From a virus (lineage: Duplodnaviria > Heunggongvirae > Uroviricota > Caudoviricetes): 27,540 nt of DNA. Within the stretch, counting starts at the first letter, position 1; the number at the start of each line of letters is the position of its first letter. The notes under the pieces are model-generated. The model was not told the DNA's origin. It was given only the letters and a program-made list of their open reading frames with translations, and made no database searches. The stretch covers positions 1 to 27,540 of IMG/VR virus record IMGVR_UViG_2529292834_000005. The stretch is one strand, 5' to 3'. The position numbers and the translations under genes were made by a program. Positions 1 through 26,730 of the stretch are shown here, piece after piece.

Positions 1-462
1 CCTCCGGCAGGAAACAACAGCACCCTGATTGCCAGCACCGCCTTTGTACAGGCTGCTATTCTTGCCCTGATTGGTGGTGCACCGGCAACGCTGGATACGC
101 TGAAAGAAATTGCAGCAGCTATCAATAATGATCCGAATTTCAGTACCACCATTAACAATGCGCTGGCACTGAAAGCACCGCTGGCAAGTCCGGCCCTGAC
201 CGGAACGCCAACGGCTCCCACTGCTGTTCAGTCAACGAATAATACGCAGATTGCCACTACCGCGTTTGTGAAATCTGCTGTTGCGGGGCTGGTTGGTTCG
301 TCGCCGGAGGCGCTGGACACACTGAATGAACTGGCGGCTGCGCTGGGGAATGATCCTAACTTTGCGACAACAGTGATGAACGCGCTGGCGGGTAAACAGC
401 CACTTGATGCCACGCTGACGAATCTAAGCGGGAAAAGTGTTTCGGCCCTTCTACAATACCTT
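1..462. repeat. Left copy of perfect inverted repeat (window-truncated), encodes central tail-fiber segment
   Basis: Seen directly: position x pairs with position 2414-x; reverse complement of 1-60 equals 2354-2413; identical 61-aa shadow ORFs at 228-413(-) and 2001-2186(+); identity stops after 462/1952. Confidence 0.95.
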
Positions 463-771
463 GGTTTAAGGGCAAGCGGTCAGTACACCGATAACTTGTT
501 ATTTACAGGCCCTGATGGACTTAAGATTCAGGTGTTTCGCAGAACGCTCGCAAATCAGACTACTGTCGGCGTAGTAAATACAGTGCCAGTGACTTTCCCT
601 GTCCCGTTCCCCGTTAATTGCTGGGGTGTTTTTTCTACCAAATTAACATGGGTTCAGATAGCCAACTCATGCGAGTGGGTAAGCAATACAGGTTTCACCG
701 CTCAGGTCATGATGAATATTGCTGTAAATACAAACACCTCAGAAGCCATGTTTTTAGCTATAGGATATTAA
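1..771 (+). CDS. Alternative tail-fiber C-terminal cassette (5' end beyond window), inverted relative to the H operon
   Basis: In-frame from position 1; first 154 aa identical to the central region of H on the minus strand, then a distinct C-terminus (GLRASGQYTDNLLF...FLAIGY); followed by its own assembly gene. Confidence 0.7.
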   Translation, partial: PPAGNNSTLIASTAFVQAAILALIGGAPATLDTLKEIAAAINNDPNFSTTINNALALKAPLASPALTGTPTAPTAVQSTNNTQIATTAFVKSAVAGLVGSSPEALDTLNELAAALGNDPNFATTVMNALAGKQPLDATLTNLSGKSVSALLQYLGLRASGQYTDNLLFTGPDGLKIQVFRRTLANQTTVGVVNTVPVTFPVPFPVNCWGVFSTKLTWVQIANSCEWVSNTGFTAQVMMNIAVNTNTSEAMFLAIGY

Positions 772-772
772 T

Positions 773-1213
773 ATGAATCGTTTTGTATTCAGCCCATCAG
801 AGTCCCGTTTTTATGCCATCGAATGGCGTGCTGATTATGTCGATAATAATTGCTGGCCGCATGATGCCATTAACGTTAGTGACAGCACTTATTATGAGTT
901 TTCCGGCACTCCACCTACAGGTAAGCAACTTATAACTTTAAATAATATGCCATCATGGGGTGATATTCCCCCGCCTACACGAGAAGAATTAATTGCCGCT
1001 GCTGATATGGAGAAACAAAAAAGAATAGATTTAGCCAATGATTACATGAACGTTAAGCAGTGGCCCGGTAAGGCAGCGATTGGCAGGCTGAAAGGAGAAG
1101 GGCTAACTCAATACAATCTGTGGCTGGATTATCTGGATGCACTGGAAGCGGTAGACACCTCCAGTGCTACGGATATCGAATGGCCTACGCCTCCGGGGGA
1201 ACAGGCCAGTTAA
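773..1213 (+). CDS. Tail fiber assembly protein, alternative copy
   Basis: 146 aa starting 2 bp after the alternative fiber cassette; shares PPxTREELIAAA and C-terminal WPxPP motifs with the minus-strand assembly protein; P2 G / Mu U family by recollection. Confidence 0.8.
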   Translation: MNRFVFSPSESRFYAIEWRADYVDNNCWPHDAINVSDSTYYEFSGTPPTGKQLITLNNMPSWGDIPPPTREELIAAADMEKQKRIDLANDYMNVKQWPGKAAIGRLKGEGLTQYNLWLDYLDALEAVDTSSATDIEWPTPPGEQAS

Positions 1214-1607
1214 CATGCTCAGGGTCGGTTGTCACATCAGCCGACTTAACTCCATTTTTATAGGCCAGCCACGCCGACAGCTTAGCTCTGTTGGCGTCGC
1301 TGATTTCACCGAGCATCAGTTCTGTTCGCCAGTCCAGCATAACAGCGTCAGCATGGGCCAGTAGTTTCTGGCGTTCTTGTTCGGCAGCAGCAATCAACTC
1401 TTCACGTGTCGCCGGTGGAATATCAATCCAGACTGGCATATTTTGGCTGGAACTTAGCTGTTTGCCTTCAGGCGGTGCAAAGTTATATTCATTTCTGACG
1501 CTATCAGAAACCTCTATAACATCAGATGGTAATGAACCATTGGTAAGGTATTCTTCTTTCATCTCGATGGGGTAAAAACCCAATGTGCTTGGCGAAAATA
1601 AATACAT
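1185..1607 (-). CDS. G: Tail fiber assembly protein (P2 gpG-like)
   Basis: 140 aa directly downstream of H on the minus strand; paralog of 773-1213; 3' ends of the two converge and overlap by 29 bp. Confidence 0.85.
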   Translation of the reverse strand: MYLFSPSTLGFYPIEMKEEYLTNGSLPSDVIEVSDSVRNEYNFAPPEGKQLSSSQNMPVWIDIPPATREELIAAAEQERQKLLAHADAVMLDWRTELMLGEISDANRAKLSAWLAYKNGVKSADVTTDPEHVNWPVPPEA

Positions 1608-1609
1608 GG

Positions 1610-3001
1610 TTATTTTCCTATGGCAATAAAATATGAAGAATTCATTCCACCCATATTGTATTTAGCAAAAAATCGGGTCAGGTCATTTACGTCACGTTGT
1701 ATCGATGGAAATTGTAGTGATGGTGATGCAGTTGTGGACATTAAAACGCCTGGCACAATAGCAATAACGCTACTCGGAAATGGTATAGGGAAATTGATAT
1801 ATAGCCCGTTAGAATCAAAAGATGCCTCGAAAGCCTGAATAACATATCCACTCGGCAACTTAAACCACCCGCCACCAGACTGAAAACTACTCATATCAGG
1901 GATTTGGCTTGCACCTGAGCCAACATCCCGTTTCGCCGCTTCTCCCAATTGAAGGTATTGTAGAAGGGCCGAAACACTTTTCCCGCTTAGATTCGTCAGC
2001 GTGGCATCAAGTGGCTGTTTACCCGCCAGCGCGTTCATCACTGTTGTCGCAAAGTTAGGATCATTCCCCAGCGCAGCCGCCAGTTCATTCAGTGTGTCCA
2101 GCGCCTCCGGCGACGAACCAACCAGCCCCGCAACAGCAGATTTCACAAACGCGGTAGTGGCAATCTGCGTATTATTCGTTGACTGAACAGCAGTGGGAGC
2201 CGTTGGCGTTCCGGTCAGGGCCGGACTTGCCAGCGGTGCTTTCAGTGCCAGCGCATTGTTAATGGTGGTACTGAAATTCGGATCATTATTGATAGCTGCT
2301 GCAATTTCTTTCAGCGTATCCAGCGTTGCCGGTGCACCACCAATCAGGGCAAGAATAGCAGCCTGTACAAAGGCGGTGCTGGCAATCAGGGTGCTGTTGT
2401 TTCCTGCCGGAGGTGTTGGCGTTTTAGGCATGCCTGTCAGAGTCGGACTGTCTTTTGGTGCATACTGCGAATGAGGATCAACAGCAGCAAGGTGCTTTGC
2501 CATCAGGTCATCCACATACACCTTAAGCTCCAGCACCTTGTCATCCACATATTTGCGGGTTGCCAGAACCACTGCAGGGTCAATTTTCAGGGTGATGTTA
2601 TCGGTGCTGCTGGTAATCAGTACCATACGCACGGTCTGCGTGCGTCCGCTGCCCTCCGCCAGCTTCGGCTTGTAGCTCTCCGGGCAGTTTCCCACAGCAA
2701 TCAGCGCGCCGGTTTCATCAAACAGGCCGACTTCACGAATCCACCACCCACCCTCATTTTCCGGGATCACCTGCTCTGCAATAATCTGGCTGCTGTTCTG
2801 CGGGTCGATATACAGCATATTCAGCGCTGCGCGGCGCTCCTCAGCAACTAACGCGGTCTGTTGCGCGTTGGGTGTGGGCAGCACACCGCCACCGCTACCC
2901 ACCGCCATATGGGTAATTTTCAACGGTACACCGAGCGCGGTGGCGCTTGCCAGTTTCGCCGCGCCGATATCCGTCAGCAGGGTGTAAAATTTTGCGCTCA
3001 T
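1610..3001 (-). CDS. H: Tail fiber protein (P2 gpH-like)
   Basis: 463 aa; N-terminus MSAKFYTLLTDIGAAKLA...MAVGSGGG resembles P2 gpH from memory; residues about 197-350 are encoded by the inverted repeat; unique C-terminal domain. Confidence 0.9.
   Translation of the reverse strand: MSAKFYTLLTDIGAAKLASATALGVPLKITHMAVGSGGGVLPTPNAQQTALVAEERRAALNMLYIDPQNSSQIIAEQVIPENEGGWWIREVGLFDETGALIAVGNCPESYKPKLAEGSGRTQTVRMVLITSSTDNITLKIDPAVVLATRKYVDDKVLELKVYVDDLMAKHLAAVDPHSQYAPKDSPTLTGMPKTPTPPAGNNSTLIASTAFVQAAILALIGGAPATLDTLKEIAAAINNDPNFSTTINNALALKAPLASPALTGTPTAPTAVQSTNNTQIATTAFVKSAVAGLVGSSPEALDTLNELAAALGNDPNFATTVMNALAGKQPLDATLTNLSGKSVSALLQYLQLGEAAKRDVGSGASQIPDMSSFQSGGGWFKLPSGYVIQAFEASFDSNGLYINFPIPFPSSVIAIVPGVLMSTTASPSLQFPSIQRDVNDLTRFFAKYNMGGMNSSYFIAIGK
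1952..2413. repeat. Right copy of inverted repeat, lying inside tail-fiber gene H
   Basis: Reverse complement of 1-462; may extend beyond 2413 but the partner would lie left of the window start. Confidence 0.95.
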
Positions 3002-4504: not shown

Positions 4505-4850
4505 TGTCTGCTCCTGTTGATACGGAAAGGGAAACTGGCGCGCCGTTATTGCTGTGTCCGATAAGCTCAACCACCATAGATCCGTCAAAATTGCCGCTGA
4601 TGGTGATGGAGTCCAGCGTAAGGCGCGGCTCCCAGCGGTTCAGCGCCACATAGACCGCAGCCATAATCTGCAGGCGCAGCGCCGGGTTCTGTGGCTGGTC
4701 AATCAGGGCAGACAGCAGGGAGCCATATTCCCGACGGGCAAGACGGCTACCCTGCGGAGTCAGCAGAATATCCCGCACCGACTGGCGCAGATGTTCTGTA
4801 TCTGCAATGGCCTGCCCGTCATTCCTGCTCATACCGATATACAACGTCAT
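4491..4850 (-). CDS. W: Baseplate assembly protein W (gp25-like)
   Basis: 119 aa, MTLYIGMSRNDGQ...GSRLARREYGSLL resembles P2 gpW; overlaps V stop by 4 bp. Confidence 0.85.
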   Translation of the reverse strand: MTLYIGMSRNDGQAIADTEHLRQSVRDILLTPQGSRLARREYGSLLSALIDQPQNPALRLQIMAAVYVALNRWEPRLTLDSITISGNFDGSMVVELIGHSNNGAPVSLSVSTGADNGSH

Positions 4851-5425
4851 ACCGGACCTCCCGTGTTGTCGCCGCCTTTCAGAACACCAGTATGCTCATG
4901 GTCATCAACCACGATCCCGTTAGAACTCATTGCGCCGCCGCCCTGGGTGACGCTGCCATTGATAACCATGTCACTGTTAATACGCGTTCTGTCAGCTTCC
5001 ACCACAAACTCACGGGTTTTGTAGGTGACGCTGTCTGCTGCCTCGATCACCATAGATTTGATGCCCCTGACATACCATCGTCCGGTGGCGGGTTCATATT
5101 CAAACCAGCCACCATCTTCATATTCGGTCACGTCAGCGCTTTCAGAATCTGACGGCGGCGGGAACTCATTGGAGTAAATAGCGGGAAGCGCAAAAGCCGT
5201 TTCCATATTTCCGCCCAGGCTGAACAGCACCACCTGCTCCCCTGGTGACGGACACCACCAGGTGCGAGACTTTCCAGCCCGATATGTCAGCCAGCTAATC
5301 CAGTTGGTTTCAAGCTCGCCCGTTTTCACCCGGCACAGCCAGCCGTCCCGGTCCACTTCGGTCACGGTGCCGGTGCGGATCAGGTTGGTGATAAGGCGCA
5401 TGATTTCGGTCAGTTGTGCATTCAT
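4847..5425 (-). CDS. V: Baseplate spike protein (P2 gpV-like)
   Basis: Start at ATG 5425 (MNAQLTEIMRLITNLIRTG...) aligns with recalled P2 gpV N-terminus; C-terminal HTGVLKGGDNTGGPV. Confidence 0.85.
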   Translation of the reverse strand: MNAQLTEIMRLITNLIRTGTVTEVDRDGWLCRVKTGELETNWISWLTYRAGKSRTWWCPSPGEQVVLFSLGGNMETAFALPAIYSNEFPPPSDSESADVTEYEDGGWFEYEPATGRWYVRGIKSMVIEAADSVTYKTREFVVEADRTRINSDMVINGSVTQGGGAMSSNGIVVDDHEHTGVLKGGDNTGGPV

Positions 5426-5471
5426 TCCGTGAGAGTGCATCAACAAAACAAATCAAAAAACCTATCGTCTT

Positions 5472-5489
5472 TGTATGGAGTCTCTTACA
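5472..5489. promoter_or_regulatory. TGT-N12-ACA dyad, candidate P2-type late-promoter activator site in the V upstream region
   Basis: Seen: tgt atggagtctctt aca; P2 late promoters carry such a dyad upstream of the -35 region (established knowledge); spacing to the V start is short, so the assignment is tentative. Confidence 0.3.
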
Positions 5490-5541
5490 ATGAAGCATCA
5501 ATACTATTTGTTATTTTATTAAATTTAAAAGCACTAACAAC

Positions 5542-6336
5542 TTGAGTTATTTAAATATGATTTTATATAAATATGTGGATTCGAAAACAGCGGAAATAAT
5601 ACTGAACACTTCGACCTTGAAATTTTCAAAGGCATCGTCCCTAAATGATCCCTTCGAGCTAACGAGCTTGCATTACGATTCTGAATCCGAAGATGCAGAA
5701 CAAGCTATGAGGTTTGTTGCAGCCTCTATGTCCTACGGTATTCTTTCACTTACCCGTAACCCTTTAAACCCTCTGATGTGGGCACATTATGCTAGGGGCG
5801 AAAAATTAGAAGGAACAAGAGGTATTTCTCTCGACATAGGAAACGGCTCCCATGCAGGATTTGTTTTTGGAATTGATGCAGACGCAGCAGGGTTAAATGA
5901 AAATGGTTCTAATGTCATTCCTGCGAAGTTTGGAAGCGTCATTTATGCTTCAACAAAACCAAAATCGCCCTTCATAAACTCTACTAATTCATTTTTCTAT
6001 GAAGGCCTTCAACACATATATAACCCAGATATACTTGAGGCACTACAAAGAACATTCCTGTATAAACCAGCTTACTGGTCTTATGAGGAAGAAGTTAGAG
6101 TTGTAAGAAATGTACATAGACGTAAAACAGAAATCCAAGAGATAGAAAAATCAAGTATTAAGGAATTGTATTTAGGGTTTAGAAACTCATTTAATAAAAA
6201 TTATTTAATTCAAAAGCGTGATGAAATAAACGCTATACTGCCTCTTTGTAAGATTTATGTATGTGGCTTCGATCAGTCAGAGTGGACCTTTAACAAATTG
6301 CCTATTGATGAGGCTATCCGTCAATGCCTTGTTTGA
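5542..6336 (+). CDS. AT-rich accessory protein, 264 aa, possibly DUF2971-like
   Basis: Inserted between V and S on the opposite strand, 2 bp from the S stop; clearly lower GC than flanks; N-terminal LYKY...FSKASSLNDPFE recalls the DUF2971 signature, unverified. Confidence 0.75.
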   Translation: MSYLNMILYKYVDSKTAEIILNTSTLKFSKASSLNDPFELTSLHYDSESEDAEQAMRFVAASMSYGILSLTRNPLNPLMWAHYARGEKLEGTRGISLDIGNGSHAGFVFGIDADAAGLNENGSNVIPAKFGSVIYASTKPKSPFINSTNSFFYEGLQHIYNPDILEALQRTFLYKPAYWSYEEEVRVVRNVHRRKTEIQEIEKSSIKELYLGFRNSFNKNYLIQKRDEINAILPLCKIYVCGFDQSEWTFNKLPIDEAIRQCLV

Positions 6337-6338
6337 AG

Positions 6339-6788
6339 CTATGACTCCGATAACCAGTGCAATAGCGTTTCGCGGGTAATGGTTTCCACCTCATCATTCA
6401 CGCCCAGCAGGCGGCGCTCAGCATAGCGGACCTCCGGGCCTTTACGGCTGACGCGGTCACGCAGGCCGTAGTGGTGAACACGGGCAATACGCTGCACCTT
6501 GCCCTCAAACTGCACGCTGGCAGAGTCAGCACTGGCTGCAGTTTTCAGGTATTTTGTTGTGCGAAGCTTTGCAAACATCTGGCGTTTGATGCGTCCCTTC
6601 TTGCTGCGGGCTGTCACCCGGCGCGGCTCATAGCCGCTGCCATCAGGATTACGCTGCAGCCTGATGTTTTGCTGCTGCGTCCGGCGCAGCTGTTGCGCCA
6701 GCTGTCGCATCATACGTTTGCGGGCTGCCGGTTCCAGATTCGCAAGCAGCGCCGTCAGCCAGTCATCCACCCTCTGCAGTTCATCCAC
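6339..6788 (-). CDS. S: Tail completion protein (P2 gpS-like)
   Basis: 149 aa; conserved block RIARVHHYGLRDRVSRKGPEVRYAERRLLG as in P2 gpS by recollection. Confidence 0.85.
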   Translation of the reverse strand: MDELQRVDDWLTALLANLEPAARKRMMRQLAQQLRRTQQQNIRLQRNPDGSGYEPRRVTARSKKGRIKRQMFAKLRTTKYLKTAASADSASVQFEGKVQRIARVHHYGLRDRVSRKGPEVRYAERRLLGVNDEVETITRETLLHWLSES

Positions 6789-10235: not shown

Positions 10236-11300
10236 TTATTCCCCACTTTCCGGTGCGGCAGGCGCGCTGAAATCACCGATTTCGATGTTTTCCACCAATG
10301 CCGCGCAGCGGTAGTCCTCGACCACATACGCCTCGTTGACGGATTCAAAGTTTTCAATCCGGTCACGTTTCGGGTTGTCGATGACAGAACGGCGGCGGGG
10401 GTCTTCCTGCCAGTAGATGGACAGGTTATCCAGACGGGTGATCAGCAGCGCATTTGCCGGGAAGAAAGGCGCACGCACGGCCTGCAGGCCACCCATGCGT
10501 TTCTGGCTGATAATCAGATCGGCAGAGATTTTTTCGCTGTTGTCCTGCTCTTTGTTAACCAGCGGGAAATACTTGTCAGCCAGCAGTTCACGACCACAGA
10601 CAACAACCAGCTCGTCATCATCCTGATACTCCACATCGATCAGCTCGTTAACGGCATCCATCACCACCGCATCCAGATTTACGTACCGGCCACCCGGACC
10701 AACTTTTACCGGCTCTGCAGTAGTGGTGCCATCTTCGGCGGTTTTGCTGCCCATAACATGATCCGGCGCGTCTTCGCGGATTTTTTGCAGCCAGCCTTTA
10801 TTGACGTCCTGCAGTAGCGGGTTTTCAGCACGACTGGAGGTTTTGGCGCGCTTCACGCCGTTAAAGCCGATCATGATGCGGTCCAGCGCCTGACGCTTGA
10901 CGATGGCGTTGCGGATACGCACCTGGAAGTCCTGGAATTTCGCCCACAGGTCCAGTTTTGCGTAGGTCAGCACCGTATCAAAGTTGGTCTGCTCGCATTT
11001 GTATTCCACGTCTTCCATCAGCGTCGGATCGGTAGGCTCTCGCTCTTTGGTGGTGGTATCGGTGGTTCCGGCAATGGTGCTGCCAACACCCAGCCCCAGC
11101 AACTGTCCTGACTGCTCAGTGACCGGCGTGATGTTAATCAGCGTCAGGAAAGCGGCGGACTGCTGGATCTGGTCTTCCAGCGTCTGCTGCACGGATGGCT
11201 CAACGGTGAACTTGCTGGAGAGTTCTTCAACCTCCACACCATTCAGGCGCGCCAGTTGCTGCAGGTAAGCGTTAAAGGCAAAGCGGGTTTTCTTTTTCAT
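10236..11300 (-). CDS. N: Major capsid protein (P2 gpN-like)
   Basis: 354 aa immediately after scaffold gene; length and position as in P2. Confidence 0.9.
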   Translation of the reverse strand: MKKKTRFAFNAYLQQLARLNGVEVEELSSKFTVEPSVQQTLEDQIQQSAAFLTLINITPVTEQSGQLLGLGVGSTIAGTTDTTTKEREPTDPTLMEDVEYKCEQTNFDTVLTYAKLDLWAKFQDFQVRIRNAIVKRQALDRIMIGFNGVKRAKTSSRAENPLLQDVNKGWLQKIREDAPDHVMGSKTAEDGTTTAEPVKVGPGGRYVNLDAVVMDAVNELIDVEYQDDDELVVVCGRELLADKYFPLVNKEQDNSEKISADLIISQKRMGGLQAVRAPFFPANALLITRLDNLSIYWQEDPRRRSVIDNPKRDRIENFESVNEAYVVEDYRCAALVENIEIGDFSAPAAPESGE

Positions 11301-15099: not shown

Positions 15100-15103
15100 G
15101 CTC

Positions 15104-15135
15104 AAAAAATGCCTGCTACCGCAGGCACTTTGTTT
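15104..15135. terminator. Bidirectional rho-independent terminator between convergent Q and the 97-aa gene
   Basis: Seen: 7-bp stem tgcctgc / gcaggca with loop tacc, A6 on one side and a T-rich run on the other. Confidence 0.7.
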
Positions 15136-15427
15136 ACTCTTTAACAAGTGTAGCCCACACAGAGTCTTCAACCTCTTCAACAACAATATTGATGTTGCAA
15201 ATAACATGGTCTTCACTCTCACGAGTATATCTGAATAGCCTTGTTTTTACTTTCCCACCAAACGACTCACGGCCTTCCTTATTGGTAATGTCGACATAAT
15301 CCCCCACATTCGGAAGCATCAGAAGCGTATTGTCTTCAGAAGAACATCCTACAATATCTCCATCGTCAAGAGGTCGCATGTCCCCTTTACACAGGTATTG
15401 AAAGTCATAGCTGTAGGTAGTTTTCAT
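15134..15427 (-). CDS. Hypothetical 97-aa cargo protein between cos and Q
   Basis: ORF only; acidic, no recognisable motif; no counterpart in the P2 map at this position. Confidence 0.55.
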   Translation of the reverse strand: MKTTYSYDFQYLCKGDMRPLDDGDIVGCSSEDNTLLMLPNVGDYVDITNKEGRESFGGKVKTRLFRYTRESEDHVICNINIVVEEVEDSVWATLVKE

Positions 15428-15599
15428 TATTTATCCTTTGAAGGTAACAGTGCTTACATATGTTGGTTCAGTGGCTTAACATGGAGTTAAGGCTCTGAAA
15501 TGAGCATCATTTGAATGTAACAATATATTGCAACATGGACTCGAAAACTTCAAATCAATCTTCCCGACAGAGAGGTGTATTACTTTTACTACCTGTTAC

Positions 15600-15630
15600 G
15601 CGCGCTCGTATCCCCGCCACGCCTGCCCGC
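15600..15630. other. Putative cos site (cohesive-end region)
   Basis: Minus-strand reading GGCGTGGCGGGGA matches the start of the P2/186 19-nt cohesive end as I recall it (P2 GGCGAGGCGGGGAAAGCAC); lies between Q and the A-side genes, as in P2. Confidence 0.5.
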
Positions 15631-15740
15631 TTTTTGTAGCGATTTTCATGCAGGTGCATGACATAAGCAAAAGCCCACCAGAACTGGCGGGCCTCAGCAA
15701 AAACGATCCTCAAACGATCATGCATATTCATGCGGCATAG

Positions 15741-16523
15741 TCATGCAGTGACTTTGGTCTGGTCAGGCGTAGAAAAATCTTCGAAAGATTTATAAGTTTC
15801 AGTATCAAATATTGAAATACTCTCAACCTGATCCATTGGGATTACATGCCTAAAATGATTTAAGTTCAGTGGAGTTGAGTCTGCTGTAATATTTTTGCTA
15901 AGGTAAAGTTCATAGTAACGATGCTGCTCATGGTATCTGAGCGTATCTTTATCACGATAACCACTAATGTATGGTATGAGAGCCAGATGCTGAGTTTCCT
16001 GATGCTCCATCCGAGGAGCAGCTACGTAACCAATGTAAACTTTTCTGGATTTTAGCGTAACAAAGATGAGCTTACCTTCATCTATAGCCTGAACTAACAG
16101 TGACTCAATTCCATCTTGAGCTGCCATCTCGCGATATGCAGATTGACGAATCTCTTCGTTTTCTATTGCTCTTCGCGCATTGTTACCTTGGTCATAAGCA
16201 ATAAACACCGCAAGCAGCATAGACAACACAAAGAACAATGGGTAAGACATTATCTTTACGTCTGTGAGCCATGAATAAAAGTCCACATGTAACTTAGGCC
16301 AAAAATAGCCAAAAACATTGATAACTGAGCTTATAACTAGCAAACTAACGAATGTAACAGCCATCAGAGTAAACCCCTGAATAGCAAACTTACAACCATG
16401 CATAGCTACATAAAAATAGGAATTCCAACCATTACTTCTTGCTTGCCTGATGCGGGACTGGTAATGATTTTCGGTGTACCAGAACCCGCAAACCAGGACG
16501 ACCATGATAACTAAGGGTCCCAT
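15741..16523 (-). CDS. Membrane protein, 260 aa, 3-4 N-terminal TM helices plus about 150-aa soluble domain; hotspot cargo
   Basis: Hydrophobic segments at about residues 3-17, 46-75 and 91-110; starts 3 bp after the 66-aa gene; occupies the slot of P2 tin/old next to cos. Confidence 0.75.
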   Translation of the reverse strand: MGPLVIMVVLVCGFWYTENHYQSRIRQARSNGWNSYFYVAMHGCKFAIQGFTLMAVTFVSLLVISSVINVFGYFWPKLHVDFYSWLTDVKIMSYPLFFVLSMLLAVFIAYDQGNNARRAIENEEIRQSAYREMAAQDGIESLLVQAIDEGKLIFVTLKSRKVYIGYVAAPRMEHQETQHLALIPYISGYRDKDTLRYHEQHRYYELYLSKNITADSTPLNLNHFRHVIPMDQVESISIFDTETYKSFEDFSTPDQTKVTA

Positions 16524-16526
16524 TCC

Positions 16527-16727
16527 TCATCCTTGTCGTTTTGCAGCCAATTCTTCCATTCTGGCACGCATTGATTCACGTACCTGCTTATTGTTCATGT
16601 TTAAGGTCGCCGCACCATTAGCATCTGTGATAATTTTACTATTATCAGACTGTTGCACATCCTGACGGATAACATCCTGCATAATCTTACCCGGTGCAGA
16701 GAGAACTTTGCGCAGAAGTTCAGACAT
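16527..16727 (-). CDS. Small hydrophilic protein, 66 aa, first gene of two-gene cargo cassette
   Basis: Start placed at ATG 16727 with strong RBS AAGGAGG; the ORF-track N-terminal extension is not supported by an RBS. Confidence 0.6.
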   Translation of the reverse strand: MSELLRKVLSAPGKIMQDVIRQDVQQSDNSKIITDANGAATLNMNNKQVRESMRARMEELAAKRQG

Positions 16728-16946
16728 ATTTTCCTCCTTATGCCTCAAACGCCACGGATTGTGGTGCATGGAGGCTGTCATCTTATAATTATAGGACAAC
16801 AAAAATACGAAACTATTCGAAGAGTGCTACGTATTAACCTATTTACATATCACCCTGCAACCAATTTATCCATAACTAACGCCTCGCACGGCTCGTTGCT
16901 CAACCTTGCGAACGGTAAAAACCAGTTTTATCGTCCGCAACGTTCC

Positions 16947-17180
16947 CTAATGTAACCAGCTGTCGTCCTCCCAGACCTGCTGCATGATTTCCATCACTCG
17001 CTTTTTGTCTTCATCCAGTTTTAACCCGCTCAGTTCAACACCATTGGCGCTGCCCTTACGGATACGAATTGCTGTTTTGGGATACAGAGGGCGCAAATTA
17101 CGGTAAAGCTCGGATTCAAGGGCTTCCAGTGTGACCTGGCTAATCTTCAGCTCTTTATCGATCATTATTTCAATGCGCAT
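16947..17180 (-). CDS. DinI-family protein
   Basis: 77 aa, MRIEIMIDKELK...VMEIMQQVWEDDSWLH resembles E. coli DinI from memory (MRIEVTIAK...ETWESADDW). Confidence 0.75.
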   Translation of the reverse strand: MRIEIMIDKELKISQVTLEALESELYRNLRPLYPKTAIRIRKGSANGVELSGLKLDEDKKRVMEIMQQVWEDDSWLH

Positions 17181-17191
17181 ACAGATTCCCT

Positions 17192-17380
17192 TTAACTGGT
17201 AACGTCCATTGACCGGCTGTATTCATGGCTGCGAATTTTCGCCATCAACTCGTCAGTCAGTTCAGACACCCACTGGATAGCCAGCCGCTTTTCTTCATCG
17301 CTGCACTCACTAGCCGCTACAAGCTTGATAAAAAAATCAATACGCTGGAGCTTCAATGACTCCAAAAGATAGTCCTGCAT
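17192..17380 (-). CDS. Small SOS-regulated protein, 62 aa, possible Tum-like antirepressor
   Basis: Start at ATG 17380 with RBS AGGAGG; LexA box about 50 bp upstream; in phage 186 the LexA-controlled tum gene sits at this end of the genome and is DinI-related (recollection). Confidence 0.5.
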   Translation of the reverse strand: MQDYLLESLKLQRIDFFIKLVAASECSDEEKRLAIQWVSELTDELMAKIRSHEYSRSMDVTS

Positions 17381-17427
17381 CTTCCCTCCTATCATTACAC
17401 GGATACACAACAACTGTATATATACCC

Positions 17428-17447
17428 ACTGTTTATATGAACAGTAT
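17428..17447. promoter_or_regulatory. LexA (SOS) box
   Basis: Seen: aCTGTttatatgaACAGta, a perfect CTGT-N8-ACAG with AT-rich spacer, in the promoter region of the 62-aa/DinI-like genes. Confidence 0.65.
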
Positions 17448-17538
17448 AATAGGAACAAAAAAATGTAAAACTGTTTTTTGTCAGTTAATTGGATACACTG
17501 ACACCAGTCAATAAAGCACGAAATGTTAAACAGCAGTC

Positions 17539-19989
17539 TTAGTACCACTGACGCCATTTGTCATCTTCCTGCAGCCGCTGGTTACGGTAAAAAATACGTA
17601 AACCGGCCCCGGATGGAATGCTGCCACCACGCAGAAGCAAATCAATCTCCGATGCACTACCTTCAAACCCTCTGGCAGTCAATTCCGCTTCAAGCTGCAG
17701 ACGCTGCTGCTCCGAAATACTCTGTTTGTAGGCTTTTTTCCGCTTCGGTTTTACCAGTCTCAACCTGGCTGTCAGCTCCCGGCGTTCCTTCTGGCCCATA
17801 TTGTATAGGTAATCCTGCAGTTCCTGCTCATTCATGGTTTTAATATCGGGCAGATCTCCCCCTGTATGGTTCAATTTTTCAACAGGGGGACAGTTATTGC
17901 CACGAGTCCAAGGGGCGCAAGCGCCCTGGTCGGCTGCCGCCTCCTGAATATCAACGGCCTTACGAACCTTTTTCCACTTCATCGCATGCGTGCAAATCTT
18001 GCCCTCTGCAATCGGGGACCAGATGCCATAGATACGGATACCGTGATCGCCGTAGGCGCTCGGTTCGTCGTTAAGCTCATAAGCAGTGCGGACAAGGTGA
18101 TGTTTGCGGGGAACCAGTACACCGCCCTGCTTCATGATGTAGGTGGCAAAGCAACCCGCATCTGCAGCCGCCAGTACCGCATCCAGACGTGGATTATCCA
18201 GTACAGGCGCACCCGCTTTGCGTTCGCCCTGTACTCTCGCCGCCTGACCAGCCAGCAAGCGCAGCTCGCGGTATGCCTGGCGCCCCGGAATACCAAAGAA
18301 ACGAAATTGCTGGACACGGTGCAGTGACGCCCAGGTGCTGACATGCTCGGCGCTGTCACGCAGTGATCTGCCGGTTTCTTTACTGATTTCTTTAGCCAGC
18401 CCGCGCCCGTCGATGTTCTTACTGATGTATTTGGCGATGTAGCTGGTCGGCGTGCCCTTGCGCGGGTTGATTAGCTCAGACTTGAAGCGCGGCCCGGTAT
18501 TGGTACCCAGCTCCTCGCGGTCTTCACGGATGGCAAACTTACGCAGCAGTGCGGTGATGGAACGGCGGTCTTTTTTGCGCATGAAGCACAGAAGATGCCA
18601 GTGCACGGTGCCGTCATGGTGCGGCTCTGCAACGCGAACGCCATACCAGCGCAGCCCGGCCTTGTGCATGGCCTTGCGGAAAGCGGCGAACGTATCAACC
18701 AGGTAGTCACTGCTCTGCCGGACAGTGGCACTGGTCCACTTCGGATTAGGTCTGCCGTTGTTGAGGGTTGCGTGGAAGCGTGACGGGCAGGTGATGGTAT
18801 AAAACACCGCGCAGTCTCCGCGCATTTCCGCGATCAGTTCCAGCCCTTTAACACAGGCCATCATTTCATTACGGCGGTGCGCCGGGTTGCTGTTGCTGGC
18901 GTTCACCACATCTTCCATGTCCAGCGTGTCACCGTCTTCGTTGACCAGCTCATGCGAGCGGAAGAACTCCAGCGATTTGCGGCGCTGCTCGCGTTTGTGG
19001 ATCACAGCTTCATAGCTGACATACGGGGACGCTTTCTTGTTGACCAGGCAGACGGCGCGCAGTTGCTCCTCCCGCCACTCACAGCGCATCTGCCACAATT
19101 TGCGATACCACCAGTCCGCACACAGCATGCGCGCCAGCGATGGTGGGATCAGTTCATAAGGCACTAGCTTGCGGCGACGCTTTTTGCGGCGCAACTTCTC
19201 AAAGGCAGGCGGGATGACCTCAAGGCGCATGGCTTCTGCAGCAACCCTTTCCCATGACTGGCGGATTTCTTCTGGTTTAACATCGTCACTGACAAACAGA
19301 TCACCGCAGGCCGCATCAAGACACATGCTCATATGTGCCGCAACCAGCGTGGACAGACGTTTGACCTGCTCCTGATTCATTTCAGGCAGTACCAGCAGCC
19401 CCTCCAGGCCGTCCTGGCTCGCCATGAACCGGAAAGACGCAGACACCTGGCTGTCACGCACGCGTTCCAGCCGCTCAAGACACGGTCTGATTGTTTCGCG
19501 CAGATAGCGGGAATAAGCTTTAGCCCTGCCCAGGCTATGGAAGTATTTAATTCGCTCCAGCAGAGGCTTGCTGATATGGGCAGGCATGGCGCTTACATCG
19601 GCAATAATCACCAAATCGGGATTAACGCGCTGCTGTTCGCGGGCCATTTTGGCATGGCTAATCAGCCGATCCTGCTCCATTTCACGCTGGACAGGATCGC
19701 GGGATTCATTGAAGAAATAACGTTCCCAAACCTTATCACTCAGCGCCTCACGGCGCAGATGCTCCCGCTCGTTATCCGCAGCGTACAGAGTGATGAGGTT
19801 TGAAAGCGCAGACTCCGGCGCAACTTCCGCCGGGTCCAGATACGGGTTAACCGCTTGTTTGGGCAAATTCCACGAATAAGGCCCGGCAACATTCTCAACG
19901 CTACCGGGATTTTCAGTTACAAACGTGGCTGCAAGACGGCCTGTACTGATTTCCGTCACTCGCAGACTCCCGCATAAACACTGCTGCAC
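17539..19989 (-). CDS. A: Replication initiation endonuclease (P2 gpA-like rolling-circle initiator)
   Basis: 816-aa ORF; contains [14 protein letters not shown] (active-site tyrosine motif type); true start may be internal, since the ORF overlaps the upstream gene by 34 bp. Confidence 0.85.
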
Positions 19990-20966
19990 ACCGCCTTATC
20001 ATTCATGCCTGCAAGCAGGTCGAACTGCACACCGCCACGAGTGGTTAAGGCCCAGTCGCGATAAGACTCAATGCCATAAGCATCAACGGTAATGACTTCA
20101 ATACGTTTTTCAGCACGGCGCGGGTCATGCGTGGACGGGAAGAATGTTGAATTGCCACGCCGTGAACATTCCGCAACCATCCTCTCCCATTCAGCCACAC
20201 GGCGGATTTCGTCAGGCCAGCGCTGGAAAATTTCTGCAAGCTCGGACTTGCGGGCGTGAATACATGGCATACACCCGACACGGCTGCAGCCCTGCAGATA
20301 AAGTGGGTTAGGCTTAATGCCATGGCGTCTGGCAAGGGCGAACACATCTTCATGCAGCCAGTTGAGGATCGGACGATAAACATGAAGGCCCGGTGTATCG
20401 TCAGCGTCTTCCTCCCACTCAGGCAGCAAAGCACGCTCCGGTGATTCCTGCCCACGGACGCCCTGCCAACTGATTACCTCGTCGTACTCTTCCAGAGCCG
20501 GGACAATCACCTGCGTCCGCACTGGCTCATGTTTCAGCTCAAACGTGCAGAAACGGACCTTGGTTGAAGGGAAGCGACCTTTCCACATGCACAAATCAAG
20601 AAATGGGTTGCCAGTTGGTTTAAGGATTTCCAGTGCCCGATGAATGCGTTCTGCTGCTTCATCCGGCGACATACCGCATTCCTGAACCAGAGAAACGGGC
20701 CACTTCTCAGCAATGAATTTACGTTTCCCTTCTATCCGGCGCGTGAAATCGGCTTTAACGCGGATAATCTTCCCCAGCTTTGACTCCAGATAATCCAGAT
20801 ATTCCATCGTCTGGGGGTGTTCATGGCCCGTATCAGCAAAGACAGAAATATGCGGAACATCGTTTTCAATAGCTCTTAGCCATTGTGCAAGACTATCTTT
20901 GCCACCTGAAATACTGATGGTGTTGATAGTGCTGGCAGCGAAGCAGCGCGGATCGATGGCATTCAT
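19956..20966 (-). CDS. PAPS-reductase-like PP-loop protein
   Basis: 336 aa with PP-loop motif ISGGKDS near the N-terminus and cysteine cluster [10 protein letters not shown]; 4-bp overlap with dam. Confidence 0.8.
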
Positions 20967-21811
20967 ACGCGTACCTCAACGGTACGGTCTGGACCTCTGG
21001 CATAATCAACACCAACCCAGCCAACTGATTTTGTGGCGATAATTTCTGCTGCAGATTTACTTTCACCGGCTGCTACGCCCATGCTGCGTTTTGCAGTGAT
21101 ACGATGGCGGGTAAAGCTACGATAAAGCGAACGGGTCAGGGATGTGTCGCTGTTGGACACGATAACTGGATGACCTTCTAATGACCGGCGCTCAAGAATA
21201 GACGCCAGATGATACTGATCGTCATCTGTAAAACCGGCAGTGTGATAACCACTAAATGTGCCATCGTATGGTGGATCACAATAAACAACATCCCCCCCCC
21301 TCAGCAGTGCTAGTGTTTCGTCATAGCTGGCACAGATAAACGTTGCGCGTTGAGTCTTTTCAGCAAAAGCGCGTATTTCATTTTCAGGAAAATACGGATT
21401 TTTATAATTACCATAAGGAACATTAAAATGACCGCTCAAGTTGTAGCGGCACAGCCCACGATAACCATGGCGATTGAGATATAGGAAATATACTGCTTTC
21501 ATGAAATCAGTAATTTCAGAGGAATGATTAAACTCATGCCTAATGTTGTAATAAGCAACTTCTCTATTCGCTATCGCAAAAATACTTTTCGTGCGTGATA
21601 TGAAAGCCTCACAATCAAGGGCGATTTTTTTATAGAGATTGATAAGATCTGGATTAATATCCGCGACAAGATAATGAGGATAGTCTGTCGCCATCATCAC
21701 AGCACAGGAACCCGCGAAAGGTTCAACCAGCCGCGAGCCAGCAGGAAGGTGCTTAATCAATTCCGGCATGATAGCGGTTTTATTTCCCGCCCATTTCAGG
21801 ATAGTGGTCAT
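20963..21811 (-). CDS. dam: DNA adenine methyltransferase (Dam family)
   Basis: 282 aa; motif I region EPFAGSCAV and motif IV DPPY ([10 protein letters not shown]); contains a G9 homopolymer on the coding strand. Confidence 0.9.
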
Positions 21812-25698: not shown

Positions 25699-26730
25699 AT
25701 GGAAAAAAGCATTTTTACTCTTATTTATTTTTCCCTTTTATTTTTGTGTCTATTTTCTTTTATTAAGTATCGACTTTACGAACTTAATCATAGAAGCTTA
25801 TTTCAACAACCACTATTCTGGGCTGCAATAGCGATACCCTTATTCACATGTCTTTATTTAGGCTCATTTGTCTGGATAAACAAATTAAACTCATTTAGCC
25901 TTACAAGCCACGGCTATCAGCGATTTCTCGACATATCAAAATTACCACTGCTAATTCTTGCATCTGCAGTACCTTTAGTCTCAATCGTTAATAACCTACA
26001 CCGGACCAAACAAACTGAAAAACAAATCTCAGAAGCAGAGAGAAAAAACAGAGTAGACTTATATTACAATCATATGAAGTTCCATCTTGATTTATATAAA
26101 AAGATTGAGTCAAAGAAAATCAGCAGTTACTATCCCATTGAAGAAACTCATAAAGAAGCTGTATATCAACATTTCATCAAACACCCGCAAGAACTTTACA
26201 GAAAAGCCTATCCCTTATCTTCACCAGATGACTCTCAATACTTAAACATCAGTGATAGTTTTATCATAGAACTGCATAAATGTTGGGTTGAAATCAATGG
26301 CAGACTGAAGCAACTATCAGAGAGCGATGTACAGCTAAATCCTGACCAAGAACTTTGTGCTTCAAAGATGAGAATTTTCTTTGGAATAATGAATATTTAT
26401 GAAAAGACTTGCAAGCATCTTTGTTTAGGGGGGTATCACACCCAAAAATCATTCATTTTGAATGATAAATTTGATAAGTATCAAATCTATTCGCCATTTT
26501 ATGACTTTGGAACTATGTACCAGTCTCTGCAGGCTCTGGAGGAAATTACATACGCCTTCCTAGATACATGTAGAAACGAAGAGGTAAATTTATATTTCCC
26601 GTTAGAAGACAAAATCCTCATCTATGGCGAAGGAATTCTTCAAGATTGGTTCAGGTATTCTCAGTTCTTGATTTCTACAGCTTATCAACCCTCCAGGATT
26701 GCGCGTCTACCAATGCCAGTACAAGTATAA
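25699..26730 (+). CDS. AT-rich membrane-anchored cargo protein, 343 aa (3 N-terminal TM helices plus about 245-aa soluble domain)
   Basis: Starts 2 bp after the int stop; hydrophobic segments at about 5-22, 39-59 and 80-97; markedly AT-rich; lies between int and the att core. Confidence 0.75.
   Translation: MEKSIFTLIYFSLLFLCLFSFIKYRLYELNHRSLFQQPLFWAAIAIPLFTCLYLGSFVWINKLNSFSLTSHGYQRFLDISKLPLLILASAVPLVSIVNNLHRTKQTEKQISEAERKNRVDLYYNHMKFHLDLYKKIESKKISSYYPIEETHKEAVYQHFIKHPQELYRKAYPLSSPDDSQYLNISDSFIIELHKCWVEINGRLKQLSESDVQLNPDQELCASKMRIFFGIMNIYEKTCKHLCLGGYHTQKSFILNDKFDKYQIYSPFYDFGTMYQSLQALEEITYAFLDTCRNEEVNLYFPLEDKILIYGEGILQDWFRYSQFLISTAYQPSRIARLPMPVQV

What the first reader, a model, noticed from the sequence alone, without database searches (positions are those of the whole stretch)
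5542..6336. AT-rich 264-aa gene inserted opposite-strand between tail genes V and S
In P2 the S and V genes are adjacent; here an 0.8-kb low-GC gene on the other strand separates them, abutting the S stop by 2 bp and sitting beside the V upstream region that carries a late-promoter-like dyad. Its N-terminus (LYKY...FSKASSLNDPFE) looks like the DUF2971 signature as I remember it. A foreign-composition gene embedded in a late structural operon is a typical moron or defence insertion.
Basis: partly seen in the sequence, partly recalled or inferred. Interest (0 to 1): 0.7.

Follow-up and report, generated by a model that had tools for sequence, protein, structure and literature searches.

The report
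Prophage cargo gene: likely antiphage ADP-ribosyltransferase
A P2-like prophage carries a foreign, AT-rich gene for a DUF2971 protein with a DarT-like ADP-ribosyltransferase fold in a known swap-in slot between two tail genes; it is most likely a single-gene phage-defence protein, an ordinary but untested example of a known kind.

Summary

One premise is wrong. P2's S and V genes are not adjacent: P2 carries the unrelated, nonessential orf30 in this same slot, which older literature already lists as a horizontal-transfer region.

Among the 80 closest relatives, 63 slots are empty. The other 17 hold unrelated AT-rich opposite-strand cargo, including a complete Septu system. SEN8 holds an FRG/PDC-S15 gene there. 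Close DUF2971 homologs sit in this slot in Klebsiella, E. coli and Pantoea prophages. Distant ones sit in other prophage moron sites and defence-type islands.

The one tested DUF2971 protein, lactococcal Aristaios, is a single-gene abortive-infection system. The best reading is a prophage-borne, antitoxin-less, ART-type defence gene (confidence about 0.6). It is a new member of a known kind, already annotated as WP_001397644.1.

The parts
5557..6336 (+). DUF2971 gene, 259 aa (ORF listing gives a 264-aa version from TTG 5542). Residues 1-185 form the ART-like core. Residues 186-259 form a variable C-terminal domain.
5490..6338 (.). The whole cargo cassette (about 849 bp), bounded by the V-promoter dyad on one side and the S stop codon on the other.
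   Evidence: Alignment with empty-slot and differently filled relatives. GC 0.35-0.41 against 0.55-0.61 in the flanks. Empty slots have about 75 bp between the S and V alignments.
5490..5556 (+). AT-rich 67-bp region upstream of the DUF2971 gene. It presumably holds the gene's own promoter and a weak GAG ribosome-binding patch. This is inferred, not mapped.
   Evidence: Sequence. The consensus promoter scan found no more sites than chance. The region is only partly conserved among DUF2971 carriers.
5472..5489 (-). Ogr/Delta-type late-promoter activator dyad TGT-N12-ACA for the V operon, intact.
   Evidence: Conserved in the window, Fels-2, SEN8, RE2010, Klebsiella and E. coli; P2 aligns one base out of register. 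Its centre is 55.5 bp from V ATG 5425, as in the P2 record (activator site 10239-10266, V start 10308).
4847..5446 (-). gpV baseplate spike gene. The likely true start is ATG 5425 (192 aa), not TTG 5446.
   Evidence: Pfam Phage_base_V and Apex. Gene calls of 192 aa on identical public contigs. Relatives align from residue 8.
6339..6788 (-). gpS tail completion gene, convergent with the cargo gene. There is no room for a terminator between them.
   Evidence: Pfam Phage_tail_S, E 1e-41. No terminator-like site near 6336. P2 has an annotated terminator after S.

Best explanation
The gene is accessory cargo in the 'orf30 slot' of a P2/Fels-2-like prophage. This slot is a narrow exchange site between the stop codon of tail gene S and the activator dyad of the V late promoter.

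The product is a single-gene, DUF2971-family enzyme with an ADP-ribosyltransferase (ART) fold closest to DarT. Its putative active site has a non-canonical first motif (Y4-K5-Y6 on strand 1), an invariant Tyr78 and an invariant Y176-E-E-E-x-R181 block.

Inferred mechanism:
1. The gene is transcribed from its own promoter in the lysogen, while the Ogr-dependent late operons on the other strand are silent.
2. The protein stays inactive until a superinfecting phage is sensed, possibly through the variable C-terminal domain (residues 186-259).
3. It then uses NAD+ to modify a nucleic acid or an essential protein. This shuts down phage gene expression or replication and aborts the infection, which protects the lysogen population and hence the prophage.

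Shown here: location, foreign origin, family membership, fold, invariant residues, slot polymorphism, and the defence content of the slot in relatives.
Inferred: expression in lysogeny, ART catalysis, the target, the trigger, and the antiphage phenotype.
For: - Family: DUF2971 above Pfam's threshold, and all 46 aligned homologs hit it.
- Defence candidate: PADLOC PDC-S31, five models, best E 2e-19. PDC families were defined by embedding inside BREX, DISARM and Type I RM loci (10.1101/2024.01.29.577857).
- Active site: invariant Y78 and E177/E178/E179 fit the conserved Tyr and ExE motifs published for DUF2971 (PMC12522546).
- Precedent: Aristaios is a single-gene DUF2971 protein with an ART fold. 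It is a validated Abi-like antiphage system that blocks phage transcription and protein production (PMC11381338, PMC13064643, PMC12967558).
- Slot behaviour: 63 of 80 slots are empty. The 17 filled slots are all AT-rich and opposite-strand, with at least six unrelated cargos, one of them Septu PtuA/PtuB at E 1e-140 and 5e-100. SEN8 has FRG/PDC-S15 there.
- Wider context: homologs elsewhere are lone genes in other prophage moron sites and in an island with AbiTii, HNH, Xre-MbcA and an integrase.
- Selection: strong purifying selection is implied by 25 invariant residues across 36-91% identity.
Against: - No functional data exist for this protein or any enterobacterial DUF2971.
- PDC-S31 is an untested candidate class, and no paper mentions it.
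- Motif I lacks the canonical His or Arg (Y-K-Y instead), so NAD+ chemistry is not assured.
- There is no antitoxin partner such as DarG, so self-control of a toxic ART is unexplained.
- I could not map a promoter.
- Convergent read-through from S could antagonise expression.
- The relationship to Aristaios is through the shared Pfam family only; the sequences were not compared directly.
Confidence: 0.6

Rival explanations
1. It is a lysogenic-conversion toxin or effector. The ART modifies a host-cell or competitor target to change lysogen physiology, virulence or inter-bacterial competition, and does not defend against phages.
For: - The Legionella survey predicts about 18% of DUF2971 proteins to be secreted effectors and notes homologs in pathogens (PMC12522546).
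- P2-like hotspots also carry non-defence cargo such as cytolethal distending toxin (PMC9122126).
Against: - The 849-bp cassette holds no secretion or delivery partner.
- The family occurs in free-living marine and soil bacteria and inside defence-type islands.
- PDC-S31 was defined from BREX, DISARM and RM embedding.
- The only tested member is antiphage.
Confidence: 0.12
2. It is a counter-defence or host-takeover enzyme used by the phage itself. On this reading, an ART modifies host defence or transcription proteins during the prophage's own infection or induction, comparable to the ADP-ribosyltransferases of phage T4 (my own knowledge).
For: It is phage-borne with an ART fold. Cargo identity roughly tracks backbone identity in Klebsiella and Pantoea lineages, suggesting long co-residence.
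Against: - It is on the strand opposite both late operons and outside them, distal to the V promoter dyad.
- 63 of the 80 closest relatives do without any cargo.
- Homologs occur as chromosomal lone genes outside phages: beside gatCAB, and in an AbiTii/HNH island.
- The same slot carries Septu, a host-type defence.
Confidence: 0.1
3. It is a neutral or decaying passenger with no current function, left by illegitimate recombination at a permissive site.
For: Rare occurrence: 0 of 80 closest IMG/VR relatives, and absent from 5,426 complete E. coli genomes. AT-rich foreign DNA may be silenced in the host (inference).
Against: - The ORF is intact on 19 public contigs with an identical protein.
- 832 homologs exist, with 25 invariant residues concentrated in a putative active site.
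- The fold is predicted with high confidence.
- The cassette is tightly trimmed with no pseudogene debris.
Confidence: 0.05
4. It is a tail structural or assembly component, conserved as part of the V-S module.
For: Only its position between tail genes.
Against: - Opposite strand and foreign composition.
- Absent from 63 of the 80 closest relatives and from Fels-2, SopEPhi and MLG42.
- Replaced by unrelated genes in others.
- Homologs occur outside any phage.
- The slot occupant in P2 is annotated as nonessential.
Confidence: 0.01

Closest known systems
Aristaios (Lactococcus plasmid pUCCL641, 316 aa; PMC11381338)
   Different: - Gram-positive plasmid rather than enterobacterial prophage; 316 aa against 259 aa.
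- The sequences were not compared directly (only a BioProject is given).
- Aristaios has a demonstrated Abi-like phenotype and blocks phage transcription and protein production; nothing has been tested here.
PADLOC PDC-S31 (phage defence candidate, single gene; 10.1101/2024.01.29.577857)
   Same: The protein hits all five PDC-S31 HMMs (E 2e-19 to 7e-5). The class is a single-gene candidate.
   Different: The PDC class was defined from genes embedded in BREX, DISARM and Type I RM loci and is untested. Here the gene sits in a prophage tail-region slot. The best stretches cover only parts of the models.
DarT of DarTG toxin-antitoxin defence systems (PDB 7yk3, 7omu, 7omv, 8baq; PMC11257639)
   Different: - No sequence-level similarity.
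- No DarG macrodomain antitoxin next to it.
- Motif I is Y-K-Y.
- There is an extra variable C-terminal domain.
- The substrate is unknown.
P2 orf30 locus, one of three horizontal-transfer regions of P2-like phages (PMC3091744, citing Nilsson and Haggard-Ljungquist)
   Same: The same position (between S and V), the same opposite-strand orientation, a similar size (261 aa against 259 aa), and nonessential accessory status.
   Different: P2 Orf30 is unrelated in sequence (E 0.37) and has no Pfam or PADLOC hit. P2 has an annotated terminator between S and orf30; the window has a 2-bp gap.
CmdTAC (PD-T4-9), an mRNA ADP-ribosyltransferase defence system (PMC11618068); listed among systems from the P2 diversity regions (10.1101/2024.10.15.618418)
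   Same: An ART-based abortive defence reported from P2 variable regions that blocks gene expression. It is a plausible mechanistic analogue, given that Aristaios blocks phage transcription and protein production.
   Different: CmdTAC has three genes (toxin, antitoxin, chaperone) and a different ART family. No homology was tested or seen here.

Membership tests
Pfam DUF2971 (PF11185) | HMM score at or above the gathering threshold (22 bits) | tested here: met
   27.4 bits, E 8.6e-6, full profile 1-89 matched. 46 of 46 aligned homologs also match, best E 1e-13.
Pfam DUF2971 (PF11185) | Strictly conserved Tyr (motif II) and ExE (motif III), as described in PMC12522546 | tested here: met
   Y78 and E177/E178/E179 are invariant in 46 sequences. 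I assigned them to the published motifs by position and secondary structure, not by superposition.
PADLOC PDC-S31 | Match to the PDC-S31 HMMs | tested here: met
   Five models, E 2.2e-19 to 7.2e-5.
PADLOC PDC-S31 | Demonstrated antiphage activity | not testable with these tools
   PDC systems are explicitly untested candidates. No paper mentions PDC-S31.
Aristaios | Single gene with a DUF2971 domain and a predicted ART fold | tested here: met
   [not shown]
Aristaios | Direct sequence homology to the Aristaios protein | not tested
   The sequence was not retrievable (only BioProject PRJNA1086404 is given). No Lactococcus appears among the ten organism names listed for the 136 plasmid hits (five more are not named) or in the 30 rows shown.
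Aristaios | Abi-like protection with a block of phage transcription or protein production | not testable with these tools
   Needs phage challenge experiments.
DarTG toxin-antitoxin | Sequence membership in the DarT family | tested here: not met
   No DarT-type Pfam hit in any of the 46 members at E <= 10. No PDB sequence-profile hit at E <= 10.
DarTG toxin-antitoxin | Adjacent DarG macrodomain antitoxin | tested here: not met
   The cassette 5490-6338 holds only the one gene. No partner is conserved in any context examined.
DarTG toxin-antitoxin | DarT-like ART fold | tested here: met
   [not shown]
ADP-ribosyltransferase superfamily | Canonical motif I (His or Arg on strand 1) | tested here: inconclusive
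   Strand 1 carries invariant Y4-K5-Y6. PMC12522546 notes that the motif I His is poorly conserved in DUF2971.
ADP-ribosyltransferase superfamily | NAD+-dependent ADP-ribosyl transfer | not testable with these tools
   Needs biochemistry.
P2 orf30-slot cargo (variable accessory locus) | Located between S and V on the opposite strand, with foreign composition and presence/absence polymorphism among close relatives | tested here: met

The most novel reading that the evidence does not exclude
The S/V ('orf30') slot may be a general but under-recognised defence hotspot of P2-like phages. It is not mentioned in the main texts of the recent P2 hotspot papers I checked.

On this reading, its uncharacterised occupants are new single-gene antiphage proteins. 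These occupants are P2 Orf30, the 283-304 aa family that fills 9 of the 17 occupied slots, DUF6216 and several small membrane proteins.

The enterobacterial DUF2971 protein would then be a DarT-like nucleic-acid ADP-ribosyltransferase that needs no antitoxin, because its variable C-terminal domain keeps it off until a phage cue arrives.
Probability: 0.35. Interest if true: 0.6.

Novelty: new member of a known kind. Interest (0 to 1): 0.4.

Why it matters
If the cloned gene protects against phages, three things follow:
- It would extend the one validated DUF2971 defence (Aristaios, Lactococcus) to Enterobacteriaceae.
- It would give a tractable E. coli model for asking how an ART toxin without an antitoxin is kept silent and what it modifies.
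- It would flag the S/V slot of P2-like prophages as a compact place to look for further single-gene defences, including the long-unexplained P2 orf30.

If it does not protect, the gene remains an ordinary annotated DUF in a known variable region.

Tried and rejected
- Homology between the window protein and P2 Orf30: none (E 0.37). Orf30 against RE2010 gp27: none.
- Foldseek against PDB: nothing significant, best E 0.11.
- Profile search of PDB sequences: 0 hits at E <= 10.
- NCBIfam: no hit.
- Permissive Pfam scan of all 46 homologs for the DarT, AbiGi or Tox-ART models: none.
- BFVD viral structures: only weak hits to uncharacterised phage proteins.
- afdb50 fold library: unavailable.
- Promoter and terminator consensus scan around the gene: no more sites than chance, so no promoter assigned.
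- Inverted-repeat search at the cassette ends: only AT-rich low-information pairs.
- Rfam and tRNA scans of the whole window: nothing.
- Aristaios protein sequence for a direct comparison: not obtainable.
- Tab, a prophage tail-assembly blocker, as a possible precedent for a tail-region defence gene: it concerns Mu-like phages and does not mention P2-like phages or orf30.
- The 67%-identical E. coli variant in 5,426 complete E. coli genomes: no match.
- Structural or assembly role: rejected by the presence/absence survey.

Full report
**1. What is in the sequence**

The ORF listing gives an ORF at 5542-6336 (+), 264 aa from a TTG. Of 832 homologs, almost all are about 259 aa and begin MILYKY. 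Gene calls on identical public contigs are also 259 aa. The real start is therefore ATG 5557.

The neighbours are on the minus strand:
- gpV: 4847-5446 by ORF. The likely true start is ATG 5425, giving 192 aa as in relatives.
- gpS: 6339-6788.
- gpW, gpJ and gpR lie further out.

The cargo gene's TGA ends at 6336 and the S stop codon occupies 6339-6341, so the 2-bp gap is real.

Composition is clearly foreign. GC is 0.373 and GC3 is 0.312, against GC3 0.62-0.70 in nine core genes. The codon-frequency distance to the core pool is 0.395, against 0.11-0.27 for core genes.

It is conserved in Fels-2, SEN8, RE2010 and the Klebsiella and E. coli DUF2971 carriers; P2 aligns one base out of register. 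Its centre lies 55.5 bp from V ATG 5425. This is the same spacing as between the annotated activator-binding site (10239-10266) and the V start/TSS (10308) in the P2 record.

**2. The premise about P2 is wrong**

The P2 record carries Orf30 (261 aa, 'nonessential') on the opposite strand between S and V. A terminator lies after S, and the pV activator site lies next to V. Orf30 is unrelated to the window protein (E 0.37) and has no Pfam or PADLOC hit.

A 2010 comparative paper, citing Nilsson and Haggard-Ljungquist, already lists the orf30 region with the TO region and the Z region. These are the three places where P2-like phages hold horizontally acquired genes (PMC3091744).

The recent defence-hotspot papers deal with other P2 loci and do not mention orf30 or DUF2971 in their main texts. 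Rousset 2022 cites two variable loci and analyses one hotspot. The iLund4u preprint names the old/tin hotspot (between gpA and the portal gene), Z/fun, and a third site next to cI. The 2026 P2/P4 preprint does not specify the loci in the passages I read.

**3. The slot is a cargo exchange site**

I fetched the 80 IMG/VR loci whose gpS is closest to the window's (88-96% identity).
- 63 have about 75 bp between the S and V alignments, meaning an empty slot.
- 17 carry 0.5-2.0 kb inserts.
- Every insert is AT-rich (GC 0.32-0.37 against 0.56-0.61 in the flanks) and encodes its main ORF on the strand opposite S and V.

The 17 filled slots hold these cargos:

| Cargo | Loci | Database hits |
|---|---|---|
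| 283-304 aa family (the RE2010 gp27 type) | 9 | no Pfam or PADLOC hit |
| DUF6216 protein | 2 | Pfam DUF6216 |
| Hydrophobic, probably membrane, proteins of 147, 187 and 254 aa | 3 | none |
| Septu system, PtuA + PtuB (L068 5472-7357) | 1 | PADLOC E 1e-140 and 5e-100 |
| The remaining two loci (L055, L082; 287 and 304 aa) begin like the 283-aa family but were not compared directly | 2 | L055: no Pfam or PADLOC hit; L082: not scanned |

Other observations on the slot:
- SEN8 carries an FRG-domain gene there that hits PADLOC PDC-S15.
- Fels-2, SopEPhi and Yersinia phage MLG42 have an empty slot.
- In a spread sample of E. coli prophages, 9 of the 13 copies with both V and S matched were empty, and 4 held DUF6216 or hypothetical genes.
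- In empty-slot phages the S stop lies only a few bases from the dyad. Cargo is therefore wedged between two functionally constrained elements, which explains the tight 2-bp junction.

None of these 80 relatives has DUF2971.

**4. Where the family lives**

The exact protein is RefSeq WP_001397644.1, 'MULTISPECIES: DUF2971 domain-containing protein [Enterobacteriaceae]'. It is found on 19 contigs. In the three places shown in full it sits between V and S; another two were collapsed as having mostly the same neighbouring genes. Its 90% cluster includes E. coli, Enterobacter, Salmonella, Citrobacter and Klebsiella.

Homologs in the same opposite-strand slot:
- Klebsiella, 72% identity.
- E. coli, 67%.
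- Pantoea, 59%. Here a umuC-like gene and two small ORFs share the slot.

Cargo identity roughly tracks backbone identity in Klebsiella (72% against 76-81%) and Pantoea (59% against 62-67%). The closest backbones (91-96%) lack it. The history is therefore long residence in some lineages plus swapping.

At 51% identity and below, the context changes:

| Homolog | Identity | Context |
|---|---|---|
| P0060, Pectobacteriaceae | 51% | another prophage's early region |
| P0063, Rahnella | 50% | beside umuDC |
| P0061, Chitinibacter | 49% | after gatCAB |
| P0078, Rosenbergiella | 44% | between the antiterminator Q gene and an N6/N4 DNA methyltransferase gene followed by the lysis genes, in what looks like a lambdoid prophage |
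| P0094, Chromobacterium | 36% | integrase-bounded island with AbiTii, HNH and Xre-MbcA genes |

Among 80 loci from species-representative genomes (22-50% identity; Proteobacteria, Planctomycetota, Bacteroidota), none is next to gpV or gpS. The gene is typically more AT-rich than its flanks, with median GC 0.39 against 0.51. It is always a lone gene with no conserved partner.

**5. What the protein is**

Sequence family:
- Pfam DUF2971 at 27.4 bits, against a gathering threshold of 22. All 46 aligned homologs match.
That motif is nonetheless invariant.
- PADLOC PDC-S31: five models, best E 2e-19.
- phrog_1762, unknown function, E 4e-51.

Invariant residues are Y4 K5 Y6 F23 N30 D31 N71 W75 Y78 H99 G101 G105 P122 G126 Y130 P135 F167 L168 K170 W174 Y176 E177 E178 E179 R181.

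Structure:
- The AF2 model is confident, with pLDDT 91.9 and pTM 0.89.
- Foldseek found nothing significant, but its weak top hits were CteC and DarT.

This agrees with two papers:
- PMC12522546 assigns DUF2971 to the ART superfamily, near DarT and AbiGi. It describes a poorly conserved motif I His, a strictly conserved Tyr and an ExE motif.
- PMC11381338 found an ART fold for the DUF2971 protein Aristaios.

The link is at fold level only. No sequence or HMM similarity to the DarT, AbiGi or Tox-ART models was detectable here. Motif I here is Y-K-Y.

**6. How it most likely works**

Aristaios is a single-gene, plasmid-borne DUF2971 protein. It gives Abi-like protection against lactococcal Skunavirus phages and blocks phage transcription and protein production. 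Its trigger and target are unknown.

PDC families were nominated because their genes sit embedded inside BREX, DISARM and Type I RM loci, and they remain untested.

ART-based defences are established. DarT modifies phage DNA (PMC11257639). CmdT modifies mRNA (PMC11618068).

Combining these with the slot's defence content, I infer a prophage-borne single-gene defence. It would be expressed from its own promoter in the lysogen while the Ogr-dependent late operons are silent. It would be held inactive, perhaps by the variable C-terminal domain. On infection it would be switched on to ADP-ribosylate a nucleic acid or an essential factor and abort the infection.

There is no terminator between S and the cargo, unlike P2. 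Late transcription through S would therefore run antisense into the gene. That could switch it off during the prophage's own lytic growth. This last point is inference only.

**7. Rivals**

- A toxin or effector for lysogenic conversion is possible. It is disfavoured by the lone-gene cassette and by the family's presence in free-living bacteria and defence-type islands.
- A counter-defence role is disfavoured by the strand, by the position outside the late operons, and by chromosomal homologs outside phages.
- A dead passenger is disfavoured by the invariant active-site-like residues and the intact ORFs.
- A structural role is refuted by the survey.

**8. Verdict**

The 'interrupted S-V' surprise rests on a wrong memory of P2.

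This is a new, untested member of a known kind: the DUF2971/PDC-S31/Aristaios type, in the known orf30 variable locus. The protein is already annotated in RefSeq.

The modest added value is twofold. First, the S/V slot behaves as a defence-type hotspot, with Septu, PDC-S15 and PDC-S31 families alongside several unknown families. Second, the enterobacterial DUF2971 protein is a clean candidate for an antitoxin-less DarT-like enzyme.

Noticed in passing
L068 5472-7357 (IMGVR_UViG_2938182985_000004): A complete Septu system (PtuA 410 aa, PtuB 217 aa with HNH) sits in the same S/V slot of a close relative, on the strand opposite S and V. GC is 0.34 against 0.59 in the flanks.
   Followed up: yes
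L053 5449-6300, L002 2157-3008 (RE2010 gp27), and L057, L059, L064, L073, L083, L091 (probably also L055, L082): A 283-304 aa family (N-terminus ...IGIYGF...) is the commonest occupant of the S/V slot (9 of 17 filled slots). The members scanned have no Pfam or PADLOC hit, and RE2010 gp27 is unrelated to P2 Orf30. It is an obvious untested defence candidate.
   Followed up: partly
L004 1440-2225 (P2 orf30, NC_001895 9439-10224): P2 Orf30 itself (261 aa, nonessential) has no Pfam or PADLOC hit, and its function is still annotated as unknown.
   Followed up: partly
L011 3236-6074 (Pantoea) and L175/L176 5001-7678 (Rahnella): DUF2971 is twice found next to umuC-like Y-family polymerase genes. In Pantoea both lie inside the S/V slot. 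In Rahnella it lies beside umuDC outside a P2 context. This suggests a module that moved together.
   Followed up: no
window 15100-17538: The canonical P2 hotspot between portal gene Q and replication gene A is low-GC (0.40-0.44). It holds ORFs of 97, 260, 91, 77 and 121 aa. The 260-aa ORF (15741-16523 -) has a hydrophobic N-terminal half that may span the membrane and has no Pfam hit. Neither it nor the 121-aa ORF has a PADLOC hit. This second cargo region is of unknown function.
   Followed up: partly
window 25699-26730 (+): A 343-aa ORF directly after the integrase gene has GC 0.35 and GC3 0.33. It has the largest codon-usage distance in the window (0.411) and no Pfam or PADLOC hit.
   Followed up: partly
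window 19956-21811 (-): A PAPS-reductase-domain gene (weak PADLOC hits to SspD, BrxP and DndC models) overlaps a Dam-type N6-adenine methyltransferase gene next to gpA. This may be a DNA-modification pair.
   Followed up: no
window 268-3001: The tail-fibre region holds two oppositely oriented tail-fibre assembly genes (773-1213 +, 1185-1607 -). It also has a second Gp53-like C-terminal fragment (268-771 +) facing the main fibre gene (1610-3001 -). This layout suggests an invertible host-range segment. No invertase was looked for.
   Followed up: no
[not shown]
   Followed up: partly
L008 4001-4807 vs 4784-5233; L005 4780/4781: In the E. coli carrier the DUF2971 gene overlaps the convergent S gene by 24 bp. 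In Klebsiella the two genes abut with no gap. Tight or overlapping convergent 3' ends are typical of this cassette.
   Followed up: no
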